A program made the translations under genes and the position numbers. 64,000 nucleotides of DNA from Gemmatimonadales bacterium. Lineage in GTDB: Bacteria > Gemmatimonadota > Gemmatimonadetes > Gemmatimonadales > GWC2-71-9. The notes under the pieces were generated by a model. The model saw only the letters and a list, made by a program, of their open reading frames with translations. It searched no databases and was not told the origin of the DNA. The stretch is from NCBI GenBank assembly GCA_036558345.1, contig DATBFV010000098.1, positions 11,513-75,512 of the forward strand. The letters are read 5' to 3'. Positions 8,180-14,138 of the stretch are shown here, piece after piece; positions within the stretch are counted from its first letter, which is position 1, and each line of letters opens with the position of its first letter.

Positions 8180-8381
8180 GGTTTTTCCCGAATAGGACCC
8201 GAAAAAAATCGATAATACCGCCACTATCTGGCGAGTGTGCACTCACTTCCTCTCGTAAACAATAGCTACACCAAGAATTAGCTAAGCGCAAGGCCGGCAA
8301 GACAATCGTACAAGCAAGTATAACAATGAGTTAGCATTGTCGGTGGCGCCGCGCACTGACCCCCAAGCTAGATTCCAGCCC

Positions 8382-9422
8382 ATGCCTTTACCGCCCCTCA
8401 TCGGGCACGAAAGGGTTAAGGCCAGACTGGCGGGCGCCCACGCCTCCGGAAAGCTACCGCAGGCTGTGCTGCTCGCCGGTCCACGCGGCGTCGGGAAGCA
8501 GCGTCTCGCGCTATGGCTTGCCCAGCTGATCCACTGCGAAGCCCCACGCGGGGAGTCGCAGCCGGAGCCATGCGGAGAATGCCGCTCCTGTCGGCTCGTG
8601 CTCTCACTGCAGCACCCAGACGTGCATTGGTTTGTACCGCTCGAGTTGAGTAACCGAGGATCCGACGCCGAGAAGCAGGTCGATGCGGCCGCGGATGCCT
8701 TGGCAGAGGAGATGACCGCGCGCAGGGAGCAGCCGCTGTACGCTCCGGTTGTCGGGCTGGCGAGCCACCCGGTGGCGTCCATACGACTGTTGCTCAAGCG
8801 TCTGGCCCTGACGCCGGCGATGGGAAATCGTAAGGTCTTCATCCTGGGCGACGCGGAACGACTGATCCCGCAGCTCGGGACGGAGGTCGCGGCAAACGCG
8901 TTGCTCAAGGCGCTCGAGGAGCCACCGGCCGATTCGATCATCTTGCTCACGGCCGCGGACCCCAACGCCCTGCTTCCGACGATTCTGTCACGTGTTGTGC
9001 TCATTCGTGTGGCACGAATCGCCGACAGTGACGTGACAGCTTTCGTGCAGCAAAAGGTCGCAGCTCGTGATCAACCTGAACTGGAGCAACGAGTTACAGC
9101 CGCGGAAGGGTGTATTGGCAAGCTCTTTGCAACGGATGGGCGTCGTTCCGGGCAGGTAGATCAGGCAGCGCGTTTCACGGAAGCACCATTGCTGTTCGCA
9201 CTCGGTCAGGTGCCCTTTCAGGCACGTGGTGGCTTCACCGACATGCTGGATGCGTTGGCGAGCAGACTGCGTAGCGAGGCCAAGCGTGGCGGGGATACCG
9301 AGAAGCTGGTTGAAGCAATCGCGCTGGTCCTCGACGCCCGCGACCTCGCGCAGGGGAACGTGAACCCGCAGCTCCTGGCGGCCGTACTGGCCGAGGACCT
9401 GCAAGCGAGTCGGGCGTCATGA
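8382..9422 (+). CDS. holB: DNA polymerase III subunit delta prime
   Basis: LIGHERVKARLAGAHASGKLPQAVLLAGPRGVGKQRLALWLAQLIHCE...CGECRSCRLVLSLQHPDVHW is the typical clamp-loader delta-prime N-terminus with a zinc module. The SRV motif (ILSRVVLI) is present. Start chosen at ATG 8382 (MPLPPLIGHE). Confidence 0.8.
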   Translation: MPLPPLIGHERVKARLAGAHASGKLPQAVLLAGPRGVGKQRLALWLAQLIHCEAPRGESQPEPCGECRSCRLVLSLQHPDVHWFVPLELSNRGSDAEKQVDAAADALAEEMTARREQPLYAPVVGLASHPVASIRLLLKRLALTPAMGNRKVFILGDAERLIPQLGTEVAANALLKALEEPPADSIILLTAADPNALLPTILSRVVLIRVARIADSDVTAFVQQKVAARDQPELEQRVTAAEGCIGKLFATDGRRSGQVDQAARFTEAPLLFALGQVPFQARGGFTDMLDALASRLRSEAKRGGDTEKLVEAIALVLDARDLAQGNVNPQLLAAVLAEDLQASRAS

Positions 9423-9880
9423 AGTTGTCGCACTTGGACCAGGCGGGTCGTGCCCGCATGGTCAATGTCGGCGACAAGCCGCTGATGGACCGCACGGCGA
9501 CCGCGACCGGCACGATTCGGATGTCGCCGGAAGCGTTTCGCCAGGTCGCAGAGCAGGCGGTTGCTAAGGGCGACGTGCTCGCCGTGAGCGAGGTGGCAGG
9601 AACGCTGGCGGCGAAACGAACGGCGGAGCTGATCCCGCTCTGTCACCCGCTCGGCCTCGATCATGTCGAGGTCGAGGCAAGTCTGGCGGAGTCGTTGCCG
9701 GGGGTGCAGGTGTCGGCGAAGGTGCGCACCGTGGGCCGCACCGGCGTGGAGATGGAGGCCCTGACGGCGGTCGCCGTGGCGTTGTTGACCGTGTACGACA
9801 TGGTGAAAGCGGTCGACGGCAACATGGTGATCGGGGATGTGCAGCTGGTCGAGAAGCAAAAGGCGCCGCGGCATGATTGA
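9419..9880 (+). CDS. moaC: cyclic pyranopterin monophosphate synthase MoaC
   Basis: LSHLDQAGRARMVNVGDKP...ELIPLCHPLGLDHVEV...GRTGVEMEALTAVAVALLTVYDMVKAVD. The start overlaps the holB stop (ATGA). Confidence 0.9.
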   Translation: MKLSHLDQAGRARMVNVGDKPLMDRTATATGTIRMSPEAFRQVAEQAVAKGDVLAVSEVAGTLAAKRTAELIPLCHPLGLDHVEVEASLAESLPGVQVSAKVRTVGRTGVEMEALTAVAVALLTVYDMVKAVDGNMVIGDVQLVEKQKAPRHD

Positions 9881-9938
9881 CGATGGCTTGATGCGGGCGC
9901 TGCAGTTTGACTCACAAGCCGTAGAACAGGAGAGGAGT

Positions 9939-10586
9939 ATGCAAGCGAGAACTCAGCGTTTGATACTGCGCGGCGGAATCATCGTGCTGGCCGCAGTGCT
10001 CGTCAGTACCGTGGGCGCTTGGGCCGGCGGCACGACCACCGAGGCTGACCGTGCGCCGACCTCAGGCCCCGAGCTCCTTGGGGAACTGCGGTCGCTCCGG
10101 CAGCAGCTCGATGCCAAGCAGGGCGAGTTGGAAGTCGCCCGGCTGCAGCTCGACCGTGTGGACGCTATCATGCAGTACTCGACCCACTACAAGCTGCCGG
10201 CCGACATGGCGACGGCAGTGTACGACGTCGCGCTCAGCGAGGGAATCGATCCCGGCCTGGCGTTCCGTCTGGTCAAGGTCGAGTCGGGCTTCAACCCGCG
10301 CGCCATCAGTCACGTCGGGGCGATCGGGCTCACACAGGTGTTGCCCAGCACGGCGCGGCTGTACGAGCCCGGGCTGACCACGCAGCAGCTGTACGACCGG
10401 GATACGAACCTGCGAATTGGGTTCCGCTATCTCCGCGACCTACTGGACCGCTATCCGTCCAACATGCAGCTCGCGCTATTGGCCTATAATCGGGGTCCTG
10501 CCAAGGTGGAGCAGCTGTTGGGTGCCGGTCGCGACCCCGCGAACGGCTATGAGGCAGAAGTCATGAAGGGATTCCGGCACCACTAA
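9939..10586 (+). CDS. soluble lytic transglycosylase (SLT domain) with N-terminal membrane anchor and coiled coil
   Basis: VKVESGFNPRAISHVGAIGLTQVLPSTA...LALLAYNRGP are the SLT catalytic-Glu region and AYN motif. GGAG sits 5 nt upstream of ATG 9939, followed by a hydrophobic segment LILRGGIIVLAAVLVSTVGAWAG. Confidence 0.8.
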   Translation: MQARTQRLILRGGIIVLAAVLVSTVGAWAGGTTTEADRAPTSGPELLGELRSLRQQLDAKQGELEVARLQLDRVDAIMQYSTHYKLPADMATAVYDVALSEGIDPGLAFRLVKVESGFNPRAISHVGAIGLTQVLPSTARLYEPGLTTQQLYDRDTNLRIGFRYLRDLLDRYPSNMQLALLAYNRGPAKVEQLLGAGRDPANGYEAEVMKGFRHH

Positions 10587-10604: not shown

Positions 10605-12170
10605 TTACCGGCTCGGAATCAGCAGCACATCACCGGGCCGGATCACACTCCGCATCGTCAAATCATTCGCCTCGAGGAGCGCCGCCAGCCCGACCCCGTG
10701 CTGACGCGCGATGGCGCTAGCCGTCTCGCCGGAGACCACCCGGTGGCGGGTCGATCCGTCGCCGGCGTCGACACTACTCACTGTGCGATAGCGAGTGGGC
10801 ACGCGCCGGACCCGTGGCTCCGGCGGGTTGCTCCAGGCCCCGCGCGGTACTACCCGGCCACTCATCGGCACGATGACCCGCTGGCCCACTCGGAGCGCGT
10901 GGGCGCGGAGGTGCGGATTGGCCGCCTGCAACATGGTAACGGTGACCTTGTACCGCTGCGCGATGCTCGAGAGCGTCTGACCGTACGTCACGTAATGATC
11001 CACGAACGTGATCCGCTCGTTGGCAGGCAGATCGGCGTAGCGCTCGGCGACGCGGGCACCCCTGCCCCGCGGGACGCGCACGATCACATCCCGTCCAGGC
11101 GGCGTGATACCGCGTACGAACTGGGGATTCAGCTCGAGTAGGGCCGCGACCGACGTGTCGGCCAGGCGCGCCATTACGTCCAATCCCGTCGCATCGGGAA
11201 CCGAGACTTCGTCGAAGACGAGGGGTGGCATGCGCTCGATGCTGCTAAAGCCGTACCGGCTCGGCTGTTTCGCGATCAGCGCCGCCGCAATCAATTTCGG
11301 CACATAATCACGCGTCTCGCGGCGCAGGCTGCGCCGGTTGTCCGCAATCTGGAAGAATGTCTGGTCGTCCACCGAATCGGGCTCACCCGGGAGCCGCGCA
11401 ATCGCGCGCTCGATTTTGCCGGCACCGGCATTGTATGCCGCCGCCGCGAGATAGACACTGCCGAGCCGCTCGACCAGGTCCTGCAGATGGCTGACGGCCG
11501 CGTCGGTGGCCTTGAACGGGTCCCGCCGCTCGTCCACCCACGGGTCGATCAGGAGGCCGTATCCGCGGCCGGTGGACGTCATGAACTGCCACATGCCCAC
11601 GGCGCGGGCGCGGCTCACGGCGGTGTTCGACAGCCCGCTCTCGATGAGCGTCAGATAGACCAGATCCTCGGGCAGACCATGGGCGCGCAGGCGCTCGCGA
11701 ATCATGCCTTCATAGCGGCCCAAGCGGGACAGCCAGATCTCGAAGCGATCGCGAGCATCGAGCTGGAAGAACTCGAGGTACTCGAGGACCCGACGATTGC
11801 CGGCAAAGCTCGAGACGTCGATGTCGAAGGTGGCTGCGGCGTCGTTGCCGAAGAGATTCTCCGCTTCCTGGGCGACGTCCTCGCCACGTACCGAGACGTT
11901 CGTGCGGGGGGCCGTGATGGAGTCCGCCGAGCGCTTTTGCAAACTGTCGAGCGCCGACTGGTCGGCGGCGGAATCCTGCTCCACGCGCGCGAGCGCCGTC
12001 CCAAGCTGCACCGCGGAGCTGTCGCGCGTCGTTGGGGAAGTCGCGCTCGTCGTCGTGGCTGTTGGGGCCGCGGCAGGAGATACTGCAGGCGGCGCGACAC
12101 GTGCGCCACCGCAGGCGGCGAGCGCCGCGGCGCCAAGCAACGAGATCGAGCCTATCGTCAGACGTTTCAT
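10605..12170 (-). CDS. MltD-like membrane-bound lytic murein transglycosylase lipoprotein with C-terminal LysM repeats
   Basis: Lipoprotein signal MKRLTIGSISLLGAAALAACGG. Catalytic region LVYLTLIESGLSNTAVSRARAVGMWQFMTSTGRGYGL...AAAAYNAG. LysM-like repeats (YVTYGQTLSSIAQRYKVTVTMLQAANP; HRVVSGETASAIARQHGVGLAALLEANDL). The start at M96 of the track ORF (ATG 12170) overlaps the upstream ORF stop (ATGA). Confidence 0.85.
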   Translation of the reverse strand: MKRLTIGSISLLGAAALAACGGARVAPPAVSPAAAPTATTTSATSPTTRDSSAVQLGTALARVEQDSAADQSALDSLQKRSADSITAPRTNVSVRGEDVAQEAENLFGNDAAATFDIDVSSFAGNRRVLEYLEFFQLDARDRFEIWLSRLGRYEGMIRERLRAHGLPEDLVYLTLIESGLSNTAVSRARAVGMWQFMTSTGRGYGLLIDPWVDERRDPFKATDAAVSHLQDLVERLGSVYLAAAAYNAGAGKIERAIARLPGEPDSVDDQTFFQIADNRRSLRRETRDYVPKLIAAALIAKQPSRYGFSSIERMPPLVFDEVSVPDATGLDVMARLADTSVAALLELNPQFVRGITPPGRDVIVRVPRGRGARVAERYADLPANERITFVDHYVTYGQTLSSIAQRYKVTVTMLQAANPHLRAHALRVGQRVIVPMSGRVVPRGAWSNPPEPRVRRVPTRYRTVSSVDAGDGSTRHRVVSGETASAIARQHGVGLAALLEANDLTMRSVIRPGDVLLIPSR

Positions 12171-12568
12171 CGTGTAGCCAAGTAATTCCCGAGTAGACGG
12201 TTCGTCGCATTCAGGACTGCAAGCGCCGCGCCACGGGCCGGATCTACCTCCGTGAGGCACGAACCCACCAGCCGCGTGGCTTCCTTGGCGCGTGCTGACA
12301 GCGAAACAATCACAACTGTCGCATCGAACGCACGCACCGCTTTCACTCCCAACAATTCGAACGTCACCTGTGGGCTGACCGCTTGCTCCAGTGCATTCAC
12401 CGCCGCAACGGCGCAGCAGCGCAGTTCGCCGGTCTGGGACGTCACGCCGTCGCATGAGCCTTCAAACCGACGGCCGTCAGACCAGGTCAGGACGACTTTG
12501 GCGCGACAACGGCCATTCGCCAACCGCTGAAAGCCGAACTCCTGAAAGCGTAGCCGCTCGTCGTGCAC
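12167..12568 (-). CDS. hypothetical protein, 133 aa, internally duplicated beta-rich/helix unit
   Basis: GTG start preceded by GAGGG 6 nt upstream. The stop overlaps the MltD-like ATG. The sequence looks protein-like and has two similar units ending ELRCCAVAAVNALEQ and GAALAVLNATNRLLG. I recognise no family with confidence. Confidence 0.55.
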   Translation of the reverse strand: MHDERLRFQEFGFQRLANGRCRAKVVLTWSDGRRFEGSCDGVTSQTGELRCCAVAAVNALEQAVSPQVTFELLGVKAVRAFDATVVIVSLSARAKEATRLVGSCLTEVDPARGAALAVLNATNRLLGNYLATR

Positions 12569-12577
12569 GTATGACCC

Positions 12578-12826
12578 TCACTCGAAACGGACTTCGATTT
12601 GCTGTTTCTGCGCGGCGTCCTGCACCGCCTCGACGACGTCCACCTCGAGCCTGGGCCGTCCCTGCTCGTCACGCTCCGCGGAGATGACGAGAATCAATCC
12701 GCTGTCGAATTCCACCTTCACGTGCCGCACGTCGGAGCGCACAGTCACCTGCTTGACCGTTTCACCCCGGAGTCGGGTCACAGCCAGGACCACGCGCCGC
12801 AAATCCTGCAGCTTGGCGCTGCTCAC
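12578..12826 (-). CDS. hypothetical small protein, 82 aa
   Basis: The GTG at 12826 overlaps the TGA of the upstream 83-aa ORF (GTGA). The sequence VSSAKLQDLRRVVLAVTRLRGETVKQVTVRSDVRHVKVEFDSGLILVISAERDEQGRPRLEVDVVEAVQDAAQKQQIEVRFE alternates hydrophobic and polar residues like beta strands plus a terminal helix. The longer TTG-12931 version would overlap its neighbour by 109 nt. Confidence 0.45.
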   Translation of the reverse strand: MSSAKLQDLRRVVLAVTRLRGETVKQVTVRSDVRHVKVEFDSGLILVISAERDEQGRPRLEVDVVEAVQDAAQKQQIEVRFE

Positions 12827-13074
12827 GCGAGGCGCTCCGCGAGAAGCTGCGAAAGCGCAGCGTCGGGAATTCGCTCGGCCTGGATGAACAATGACGACTT
12901 CGAGGTGGCCTCCAGCGGATATGGCGTCCAAAACGAGCGGCGCCTTCCCGGGAGAGCCTCAGACGCAGCGCGGAACGACAAGACCAACTGCCATGCAGCC
13001 GTATTCGCGCGACGCTCGGCCACCGCGTCCACGTGCCAAACCTGATCCCCGTGCGCAATTACTCGCCATGACAT
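12823..13074 (-). CDS. hypothetical small protein, 83 aa
   Basis: ATG start with a GAGGTGA Shine-Dalgarno-like sequence 4-5 nt upstream. By my codon count about 72 percent of third positions are G/C, lower than in clearly real neighbours. No recognisable motif. Confidence 0.45.
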   Translation of the reverse strand: MSWRVIAHGDQVWHVDAVAERRANTAAWQLVLSFRAASEALPGRRRSFWTPYPLEATSKSSLFIQAERIPDAALSQLLAERLA

Positions 13075-13114
13075 GGCTCACCTCGAGCGGGGAAGACGAG
13101 CGCAAAGGGCCCCC

Positions 13115-13143
13115 AATATGAGGGTTAGATGTAGTACAGTCAA
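13115..13143 (-). promoter_or_regulatory. candidate sigma70-type promoter for the small-ORF/MltD operon
   Basis: The minus strand reads TTGACT (13143-13138), a 17-nt spacer, then CATATT (13120-13115). It lies in a locally AT-rich gap between ilvE and the first small ORF. Confidence 0.35.

Positions 13144-14065: not shown

Positions 14066-14138
<73 letters not shown>

What the first reader, a model, noticed from the sequence alone, without database searches (positions are those of the whole stretch)
12167..13143. Three translationally coupled small unknown proteins preceding an MltD-like lytic transglycosylase
Four minus-strand genes are stitched together. An 83-aa ORF (13074-12823) overlaps an 82-aa ORF by GTGA (12826-12578). 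Nine nt later, with GAGGG as a Shine-Dalgarno sequence, comes a 133-aa ORF (12568-12167). Its TGA overlaps the ATG of the MltD-like lipoprotein (ATGA at 12170). A TTGACT-17-CATATT promoter candidate sits just upstream, in an AT-rich gap after ilvE. None of the three small proteins carries a signal peptide or a motif I can assign. The two 82/83-aa genes with a 4-nt overlap have toxin-antitoxin-like geometry, but I recognise no toxin or antitoxin fold. The tight coupling suggests an uncharacterised cytoplasmic module co-expressed with a periplasmic murein hydrolase.
Basis: partly seen in the sequence, partly recalled or inferred. Interest (0 to 1): 0.55.

Follow-up and report, generated by a model that had tools for sequence, protein, structure and literature searches.

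The report
Conserved Gemmatimonadota small-protein operon with MltD
Three small genes stitched to a cell-wall-cutting enzyme gene are real, strongly conserved proteins found only in Gemmatimonadota; the largest is a free-standing copy of the leucine-sensing domain of LeuA, and the set is not a toxin-antitoxin pair, but its function is still unknown.

Summary

All three small ORFs are genuine genes:
- They have 515-1704 homologues, all labelled hypothetical.
- dN/dS is 0.05-0.14.
- The order ilvE-ORF1-ORF2-ORF3-MltD recurs in 80 Gemmatimonadales species genomes.
- The 4-nt overlaps are kept (64/65 and 67/78).
- The TTGAC-N17-CATATT promoter and the GAGGTGA ribosome-binding site are conserved.

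ORF3 folds confidently (pLDDT 89.5) as a tandem beta-beta-beta-alpha domain. Its only whole-domain structural matches are the LeuA and citramalate-synthase allosteric domains. 25 of 76 relatives give sub-threshold LeuA_dimer hits.

Distant Gemmatimonadota keep an ORF3-type gene directly upstream of the MltD-like gene, often fused to an N-terminal domain and without ORF1/ORF2. Some copies lie elsewhere.

ORF2 is missing in 13 of 80 loci. The ORF1 model failed. Nothing supports a toxin-antitoxin reading.

Best guess: a cytoplasmic, dimeric ligand-sensing module co-produced with the murein hydrolase. The mechanism is inferred, not shown. The result is a solid uncharacterised phylum-specific operon of moderate interest.

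The parts
13115..13143 (-). sigma-70-type promoter, TTGACT-17 nt-CATATT
   Evidence: Found by the consensus scan. The -35 TTGAC and -10 (C/A)ATATT hexamers are conserved in the printed rows of an alignment of 61 ilvE-ORF1 intergenic sequences.
13075..13114 (-). short 5' leader ending in a conserved Shine-Dalgarno sequence (GAGGTGAGCC before the ATG)
   Evidence: GAGGTGA is near-invariant in the alignment. RNAalifold finds no conserved RNA structure.
12823..13074 (-). ORF1, 83 aa, basic (pI 9.9), soluble, fold unknown. It is present with ORF3 wherever the locus is complete in Gemmatimonadales.
   Evidence: 515 homologues. It has 51 invariant columns and a variable Gly-rich loop. dN/dS is 0.05. 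It is found in 78/80 loci. The AF2 model failed at pLDDT 49.
12578..12826 (-). ORF2, 82 aa, GTG start overlapping the ORF1 stop (GTGA). Soluble, fold unknown, dispensable accessory gene.
   Evidence: 639 homologues. dN/dS is 0.14. The 4-nt overlap is kept in 64/65 loci. It is absent in 13 of 80 loci.
12167..12568 (-). ORF3, 133 aa, free-standing tandem beta-beta-beta-alpha domain of the LeuA-allosteric type. It is the core gene of the module.
   Evidence: 1704 homologues and 920 clusters at 50% identity. AF2 pLDDT is 89.5. Foldseek top hits are the LeuA and citramalate-synthase regulatory domains, TM about 0.6. 25/76 relatives give sub-threshold LeuA_dimer hits. An internal repeat is detected at P=6e-4. 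dN/dS is 0.08.
10605..12170 (-). MltD-like lipoprotein lytic transglycosylase (SLT domain plus two LysM). Its ATG overlaps the ORF3 stop (ATGA).
   Evidence: Pfam SLT 4.7e-23 and LysM 2.1e-24. NCBIfam murein transglycosylase D scores 147 bits, below the equivalog cut-off. The overlap is kept in 67/78 loci.

Best explanation
This is a vertically inherited operon specific to Gemmatimonadota. Its own conserved sigma-70-type promoter drives a short leader. Four genes are then translated in a coupled chain: two or three small soluble cytoplasmic proteins, followed by an exported MltD-like lipoprotein lytic transglycosylase.

The core small protein, ORF3, is a stand-alone version of the tandem beta-beta-beta-alpha allosteric (dimerisation) domain. 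In LeuA and citramalate synthase that domain binds leucine or isoleucine in pockets at a dimer interface. I therefore propose that ORF3 is a dimeric sensor for a small ligand, probably amino-acid-like.

ORF1 is a constant accessory subunit in Gemmatimonadales and ORF2 is a dispensable one. In other classes an N-terminal fused alpha/beta domain takes their place. I propose that the complex ties cytoplasmic metabolic state to cell-wall remodelling by the co-produced hydrolase.

Shown: the genes are coding, they are conserved, the coupling and promoter are conserved, ORF3 has this fold, and it is not a toxin-antitoxin pair.

Inferred: dimerisation, ligand binding, any ORF1/2/3 complex, and any action on MltD or peptidoglycan.

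My confidence is about 0.85 for the shown part and about 0.25 for the sensing mechanism.
For: Coding and conservation:
- Hundreds to thousands of homologues, none annotated.
- dN/dS of 0.05, 0.14 and 0.08 against 65-80 orthologues.

Operon architecture:
- The order ilvE-ORF1-ORF2-ORF3-MltD recurs in 80 species genomes.
- The 4-nt overlaps are kept in 64/65 and 67/78 loci.
- The promoter and Shine-Dalgarno sequence are conserved.

Fold of ORF3:
- The AF2 model has pLDDT 89.5 and shows (beta-beta-beta-alpha)x2.
- The Foldseek PDB top seven hits are all LeuA or LiCMS regulatory domains, including leucine- and isoleucine-bound forms. E-values run from 7e-5 to 2e-3 and TMq from 0.49 to 0.61 (0.57-0.61 for the six best).
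- Pfam LeuA_dimer is the only recurrent family, hit by 25/76 diverse relatives with a best E of 1.5e-4.
- The two halves of ORF3 align to each other at P=6e-4.

Possible ligand site:
- Family-wide conserved residues include positions in the first turns of helix 1 (G-x-L-R50) and the loop before helix 2, and much of helix 2 itself.

Link to MltD beyond simple synteny:
- In distant Gemmatimonadota the upstream neighbour changes (guaB, DUF2064, an unannotated gene), yet an ORF3-type gene stays immediately 5' of the SLT-LysM gene. This is seen in L081-84, L087, L088, L091 and L093.
- Tandem or paired paralogues in L086 and L085 fit a dimerising domain.
Against: - ORF3 scores below Pfam's gathering threshold (12.3 versus 24.9 bits).
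- Profile searches of PDB sequences do not reach LeuA.
- No ligand-binding residues could be checked.
- Each half of ORF3 also resembles generic beta-beta-beta-alpha units of nucleic-acid binders such as dsRBD, ribosomal protein S5 and Rad52.
- ORF3 is cytoplasmic while MltD acts in the periplasm, so any direct control needs an unknown intermediary.
- ORF3-type genes occur without MltD beside them in L085, L086, L089, L090, L092 and L094.
- The ilvE adjacency is not kept in deeper lineages, so it does not support a branched-chain amino-acid link.
- The folds of ORF1 and ORF2 are unknown.
Confidence: 0.5

Rival explanations
1. Inherited synteny only. ORF1-3 form a conserved housekeeping module with a role unrelated to peptidoglycan. 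They sit next to mltD because this chromosomal block (DUF2064 cluster, ORF1-3, MltD, SLT, MoaC, HolB, M23, FtsX, FtsE) rearranges slowly in the phylum.
For: The whole neighbourhood is syntenic across distant Gemmatimonadota. Some lineages keep the ORF3-type gene after the DUF2064 cluster but have no MltD downstream (L094; L092). Paralogues lie in unrelated contexts.
Against: The upstream neighbour has changed several times while the ORF3-MltD junction persists. That junction is a 4-nt stop/start overlap in 67/78 loci and again in L088. Such a pattern is usually kept by selection for co-expression.
Confidence: 0.25
2. ORF3 is a nucleic-acid-binding protein. Its two beta-beta-beta-alpha units would work like dsRBD, S5 or Rad52 units, and it would act post-transcriptionally, for example on its own polycistronic mRNA or on the ribosome.
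For: Secondary Foldseek matches are dsRBD proteins (Loqs, RNase III), ribosomal protein S5 and Rad52/ERF. ORF3 and ORF1 are basic, with pI 9.0 and 9.9. One relative lies 22 nt downstream of an eRF1-like baeRF gene (L089).
Against: Those matches cover only one half of ORF3 and have TM 0.2-0.3 with large rmsd. The LeuA and CMS domains match the whole tandem at TM about 0.6. LeuA_dimer is the only recurrent sequence-level hit. The leader has no conserved RNA structure.
Confidence: 0.15
3. ORF1-3 are dedicated helpers of MltD itself. They would be a cytoplasmic chaperone or targeting factor for the pre-lipoprotein, or an immunity-type inhibitor of the transglycosylase.
For: Translational coupling gives co-production at fixed ratios. 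Adjacency to the SLT-LysM gene is conserved in several distant ORF3-family lineages.
Against: ORF1-3 have no signal peptide, so they cannot meet mature MltD the way Ivy or MliC/PliC inhibitors meet their targets. Sec/Lol lipoproteins are not known to need private chaperones (background knowledge). ORF3-type genes exist without MltD beside them.
Confidence: 0.07
4. ORF1/ORF2 are a type II toxin-antitoxin pair.
For: Only the geometry: two genes of about 80 codons with a 4-nt overlap.
Against: No toxin, antitoxin or defence family hit in Pfam, NCBIfam or PADLOC. The locus is fixed and single-copy in 80 species genomes. There is no second copy in the 64-kb window and no match in plasmids. dN/dS is very low. 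ORF2 is lost in 13 loci with ORF1 retained and then coupled directly to ORF3.
Confidence: 0.03

Closest known systems
LeuA / citramalate synthase allosteric (dimerisation) domain, Pfam PF08502 LeuA_dimer
   Same: The fold is the same tandem beta-beta-beta-alpha. The best and only whole-domain structural matches are PDB 3fig, 3hpz, 3hps, 1sr9, 3f6h and 3f6g. Sub-threshold sequence matches recur in 25/76 relatives. Both show internal duplication.
   Different: ORF3 is a free-standing 133-aa protein with no catalytic TIM-barrel domain. It scores below the Pfam threshold. It is encoded in an operon with a peptidoglycan hydrolase rather than in a leucine or isoleucine pathway enzyme. Ligand binding and dimerisation are untested.
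Small stand-alone regulatory-domain proteins such as ACT-domain and PII-type signal proteins (functional analogy only, from background knowledge)
   Same: These are small, soluble proteins with a ligand-binding fold and no enzymatic domain. Distant relatives of ORF3 add an N-terminal alpha/beta domain with faint NapD and HMA (ferredoxin-like) similarity in one member.
   Different: No sequence or fold membership was shown. The partner and the ligand are unknown.
Type II toxin-antitoxin operons
   Same: Two genes of about 80 codons with a 4-nt overlap.
   Different: No family hit, no mobility, strict synteny, strong purifying selection, and one partner is dispensable.
Proteinaceous inhibitors of lysozymes and lytic transglycosylases (Ivy, MliC/PliC)
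   Same: Small proteins genetically associated with a lysozyme-fold enzyme.
   Different: Those inhibitors are periplasmic or lipoproteins with signal peptides. ORF1-3 have no signal peptide and no sequence similarity to them.
E. coli MltD (for the downstream gene)
   Same: SLT catalytic domain followed by LysM repeats, with a lipoprotein signal.
   Different: It scores 147 bits against an equivalog cut-off of 508, so it shares the architecture but is not an orthologue by NCBIfam criteria. E. coli mltD has no such upstream small genes (background knowledge).

Membership tests
Pfam PF08502 LeuA_dimer (LeuA allosteric/dimerisation domain) | Sequence score at or above the Pfam gathering threshold (24.9 bits) | tested here: not met
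   ORF3 scores 12.3 bits, E 0.16. 25 of 76 diverse relatives give sub-threshold hits, with a best E of 1.5e-4.
Pfam PF08502 LeuA_dimer (LeuA allosteric/dimerisation domain) | Fold made of two beta-beta-beta-alpha units | tested here: met
   The AF2 model has pLDDT 89.5 with strands 6-15, 20-29, 34-42, helix 45-64, strands 69-80, 83-93, 97-106 and helix 110-126. The Foldseek top seven hits are LeuA or LiCMS regulatory domains.
Pfam PF08502 LeuA_dimer (LeuA allosteric/dimerisation domain) | Located C-terminal to an HMGL-like catalytic TIM barrel in one polypeptide | tested here: not met
   ORF3 is a 133-aa stand-alone protein. Relatives are 130-215 aa and none has a catalytic domain.
Pfam PF08502 LeuA_dimer (LeuA allosteric/dimerisation domain) | Homodimer with amino-acid pockets at the interface, with the ligand carboxylate between helix N-termini (PMC11057210) | not testable with these tools
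   Only indirect hints exist. Conserved motifs lie at both helix N-termini, and tandem paralogues occur.
Type II toxin-antitoxin system | A recognisable toxin or antitoxin domain | tested here: not met
   No hits in Pfam, NCBIfam, PADLOC or PHROGs. PDB profile searches are empty or spurious.
Type II toxin-antitoxin system | Patchy, mobile, often multi-copy distribution, with both partners kept together | tested here: not met
   The locus is the same in 80 species genomes. No plasmid matches. No second copy in the window. ORF2 is lost in 13 loci with ORF1 kept.
MltD-type lytic transglycosylase (downstream gene) | SLT catalytic domain plus LysM repeats and a lipoprotein signal | tested here: met
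   SLT 4.7e-23 and LysM 2.1e-24 with two stretches. The N-terminus ends in LAAC, a lipobox.
MltD-type lytic transglycosylase (downstream gene) | NCBIfam equivalog score for murein transglycosylase D (508 bits) | tested here: not met
   147.4 bits.
Periplasmic lysozyme/transglycosylase inhibitors (Ivy, MliC/PliC) | Export signal and family domain | tested here: not met
   No signal peptide. No family hits.

The most novel reading that the evidence does not exclude
A free-standing LeuA-type allosteric domain, with its private partner proteins ORF1 and ORF2, is a phylum-specific cytoplasmic metabolite switch. It would govern production or activity of a lytic transglycosylase. That would be a previously unknown way of coupling amino-acid or precursor status to peptidoglycan cleavage, and the first known function for this regulatory fold outside LeuA and CimA enzymes.
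Probability: 0.15. Interest if true: 0.7.

Novelty: new variant of a known kind. Interest (0 to 1): 0.42.

Why it matters
Gemmatimonadota are abundant soil bacteria with few cultured members, and most of their conserved genes have no assigned function. Here three such genes are shown to be real, under strong selection, and locked by translational coupling to a cell-wall hydrolase.

One of them is a regulatory fold so far described only as part of leucine and isoleucine pathway enzymes. If it senses a metabolite and influences murein cleavage, it would add a new type of control over lytic transglycosylases, whose regulation is poorly understood in any bacterium.

Even if it does not, the three proteins define uncharacterised families. 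None has a significant match in Pfam or NCBIfam, and they are worth registering and testing.

Tried and rejected
- Family libraries: Pfam, NCBIfam, PADLOC and PHROGs scans of ORF1-3 found nothing significant.
- PDB sequence searches: profile searches with alignments of ORF1, ORF2 and ORF3 gave only chance-level hits. These were DRC9, CcmP at E 0.3-0.6, and designed TIM barrels for ORF2 with repetitive weak stretches. Foldseek did not support the CcmP/BMC idea, so I dropped it.
- ORF1 structure: the AF2 model failed at pLDDT 49, so I made no fold search with it.
- N-terminal extension: I tested whether the ~75-aa extension of the ~210-aa ORF3 relatives is homologous to ORF1 or ORF2. hhalign gave P of 0.07-0.5, so nothing was detectable. 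ORF1 versus ORF2 showed no similarity either.
- Branched-chain amino-acid link through the ilvE adjacency: weakened, because deeper lineages have guaB or a DUF2064 cluster upstream instead.
- Leader RNA: there is no conserved structure and no Rfam family in the region.
- Literature: searches for LeuA_dimer and for Gemmatimonadetes with lytic transglycosylase found nothing relevant.
- Toxin-antitoxin reading: rejected, as set out under the rival explanations.
Full report
**Observation.**
- An 84-nt gap follows ilvE (14022-13159). It holds TTGACT-17-CATATT at 13143-13115.
- ORF1 is 13074-12823 (83 aa, ATG).
- ORF2 starts at the GTG at 12826, overlapping the ORF1 stop as GTGA, and ends at 12578 (82 aa).
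- Nine nucleotides later, with GAGGG spanning the ORF2 stop, ORF3 runs 12568-12167 (133 aa, GTG).
- The ORF3 TGA overlaps the ATG of a 521-aa protein (12170-10605) as ATGA.
- That protein starts with a lipoprotein signal (…LLGAAALAAC) and carries an SLT domain and two LysM domains.
- None of the three small proteins has a hydrophobic N-terminus or a TM-like segment.

**They are real genes.**
- Each small protein has many homologues, all unnamed and none with a Pfam domain: 1704 for ORF3, 639 for ORF2 and 515 for ORF1.
- Every named source but one is a Gemmatimonadales or Gemmatimonadota MAG. The exception, P0228, is labelled Betaproteobacteria.
- Alignments show very high conservation: 58 invariant columns in ORF3, 41 in ORF2 and 51 in ORF1. 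ORF1 has one variable Gly-rich loop.
- Nei-Gojobori comparison of the window genes with 65-80 orthologues gives median dN/dS of 0.05 (ORF1), 0.14 (ORF2) and 0.08 (ORF3), with pS around 0.6.

**Operon architecture is conserved.**
- A scan of one genome per GTDB species found relatives of ORF3 in 482 genomes. The best 80 are all Gemmatimonadota MAGs.
- In those 80 loci the order ilvE-ORF1-ORF2-ORF3-MltD recurs.
- The ORF1/ORF2 overlap is 4 nt in 64/65 loci. The ORF2-ORF3 spacer is mostly 9-10 nt. The ORF3/MltD overlap is 4 nt in 67/78 loci.
- ORF2 is missing in 13 loci. In 5 of these ORF1 overlaps ORF3 by 4 nt.
- An alignment of 61 ilvE-ORF1 intergenic sequences shows a near-invariant ATTGAC…N17…(C/A)ATATT and a near-invariant GAGGTGA before the ATG. 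The promoter call is therefore supported by phylogenetic footprinting, although one consensus match alone was not above chance.
- The leader of about 35 nt has no conserved structure and no Rfam match.

**What ORF3 is.**
- AlphaFold2 with a 31-sequence alignment gives a confident model (pLDDT 89.5, pTM 0.86) of two consecutive beta-beta-beta-alpha units.
- In Foldseek against the PDB, the top seven matches are all regulatory domains. They are M. tuberculosis LeuA (3fig leucine-bound, 3hpz, 3hps, 1sr9; E from 7e-5, TMq 0.57-0.61, about 125 aligned columns) and Leptospira citramalate synthase with isoleucine (3f6h, 3f6g; TMt 0.55-0.62).
- Everything below that (dsRBD proteins, ribosomal S5, Rad52, PsbP) aligns only one half of ORF3 with TM 0.2-0.4.
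- The viral library gives only such half-matches, to RNase III and Rad52/ERF.
- At sequence level, LeuA_dimer (PF08502) is the only weak Pfam hit of ORF3 (E 0.16). It is also the only family hit repeatedly when 76 diverse relatives are scanned (25 members, best E 1.5e-4).
- The two halves of the family profile align to each other in register at P=6e-4.
- I conclude that ORF3 has the LeuA-allosteric fold and is probably a very distant homologue. It fails formal Pfam membership and lacks the catalytic domain that normally precedes this domain.
- According to PMC11057210, the LeuA regulatory domains form two symmetric pockets at the dimer interface. [quoted passage not shown]
- In ORF3, family-wide conserved residues include G-x-L-R50 in the first turns of helix 1 and D-x-x-R in the loop before helix 2; most of helix 2 (A-A-L-A-V-L-N-A-T-N-R) is conserved as well. 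This is compatible with a similar site but is only an inference.

**Wider family and context.** An exhaustive profile search found 920 clusters at 50% identity.
- One large clade is about 200-214 aa. It has a ~75-aa N-terminal extension (consensus LRxxLEALPGVxRAVVD…) in front of the ORF3 domain. One member shows faint NapD and HMA similarity. No homology to ORF1 or ORF2 is detectable.
- Two such genes lie immediately upstream of the SLT-LysM gene (L081-84). guaB is upstream instead of ilvE. The same downstream block follows, MoaC-HolB-M23 peptidase-FtsX, continuing to FtsE (ABC_tran) in L081.
- Other clades also keep the pair. L087 and L088 have divergent ORF1 (52%), ORF2 (36-43%), ORF3 (46-53%) and MltD behind a Pyr_redox/VTT/DUF547/GT2/DUF2064 cluster. 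L093 has ORF2-ORF3-MltD. L091 has ORF3-MltD alone.
- The junction ORF3-MltD has therefore survived several changes of the upstream neighbour. This argues for selected co-expression.
- The link is not universal. L094 keeps the DUF2064 cluster and an ORF3-type gene but has no MltD, and L092 likewise has none.
- A separate, probably paralogous clade sits in unrelated contexts. L085 has two copies near a Ser/Thr kinase. L086 has a tandem overlapping pair. L090 is another case.
- One relative follows an eRF1-like baeRF gene (L089).

**ORF1 and ORF2.**
- No family or PDB-sequence relatives were found. The ORF2 hit to designed TIM barrels consists of repeated weak fragments and is not meaningful.
- The ORF1 model failed (pLDDT 49).
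- ORF1 accompanies ORF3 wherever the locus is complete in Gemmatimonadales. ORF2 is dispensable.

**Toxin-antitoxin idea.** I reject it.
- There are no toxin or antitoxin domains.
- The locus is fixed and single-copy, and inheritance follows the species.
- dN/dS is very low.
- There are no plasmid homologues and no second copy in the window.
- One partner has been lost without the other.

**Mechanism.**
- Shown: a self-promoted, translationally coupled operon produces soluble cytoplasmic proteins together with an exported MltD-like lipoprotein. The core protein has the fold of an amino-acid-binding allosteric dimerisation domain.
- Inferred (about 0.25): ORF3 dimerises, binds a small metabolite and, with ORF1 and ORF2 or the fused N-terminal domain, links cytoplasmic state to cell-wall remodelling.
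- Rivals: adjacency without functional coupling (0.25), nucleic-acid binding through the beta-beta-beta-alpha units (0.15), a private MltD helper or inhibitor (0.07), and toxin-antitoxin (0.03).

**Verdict.**
- The finding is a real, well-conserved, uncharacterised operon specific to Gemmatimonadota.
- The fold assignment for ORF3, as a free-standing LeuA-type regulatory domain in a peptidoglycan-hydrolase operon, is new information and a new variant of a known kind.
- Function remains open, so interest is moderate.

Noticed in passing
L040 3817-4443 (also L034, L037, L045, L046, L048, L049, L053, L066, L071: gaps of about 660-730 nt between ilvE and ORF1): In L040 a 208-aa ORF resembling DUF2064 lies between ilvE and ORF1. 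About ten related loci have a gap of similar size, but only L040 was inspected. In deeper lineages (L087, L088, L094) a Pyr_redox / VTT(DedA) / DUF547 / GT2 / DUF2064 block precedes the small genes. This is a second recurring neighbour besides MltD.
   Followed up: partly
L089 1093-2659: An eRF1-like baeRF-family gene (374 aa) ends 22 nt before an ORF3-type gene. MltD is absent there, and an SLT gene converges on the pair. It is a single case and a possible hint of a translation or RNA link.
   Followed up: partly
L086 4784-5658; L085 5001-5402 and 6544-6960: ORF3-family paralogues occur as a tandem 4-nt-overlapping pair (136 + 155 aa). They also occur as two copies 1.1 kb apart next to a Ser/Thr kinase-Tricorn-PD40 gene. 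This suggests hetero- or homodimeric use of the domain outside the MltD context.
   Followed up: partly
window 8337-10586 (+ strand): HolB-like (8337-9422), MoaC (9419-9880, 4-nt overlap) and a second, smaller SLT-domain protein (9837-10586) converge on the MltD-like gene with an 18-nt gap. This block recurs across Gemmatimonadota, extended in distant loci by M23 peptidase, FtsX and FtsE. The HolB and MoaC names rest on their Pfam-annotated counterparts in loci L081-L091; the window ORFs themselves were not scanned. The SLT name rests on a weak tblastn match to the MltD SLT region.
   Followed up: partly
window 14066-14138 (-): A tRNA-Lys (anticodon TTT) lies just upstream of ilvE. It is the only Rfam gathering-level hit in the 64-kb window.
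   Followed up: yes
window 12940-12965 (ORF1 residues ~37-45): ORF1 homologues carry a hypervariable Gly/Ala/Arg-rich loop insertion of 0-20 residues between two invariant blocks. It is probably a surface loop.
   Followed up: no
window 13095-13114 and the aligned loci: Besides the -35 and -10 hexamers, a CTAA(C/G) element inside the promoter spacer is strongly conserved, as is GGGCCC-TTTGCG just downstream of the -10. This may be an operator or a discriminator region, and its role is unexplained.
   Followed up: no
P0228 (ORF2 homologue): One ORF2 homologue with 84% identity is labelled as coming from a Betaproteobacteria MAG. This is most likely a mis-binned Gemmatimonadales contig.
   Followed up: no
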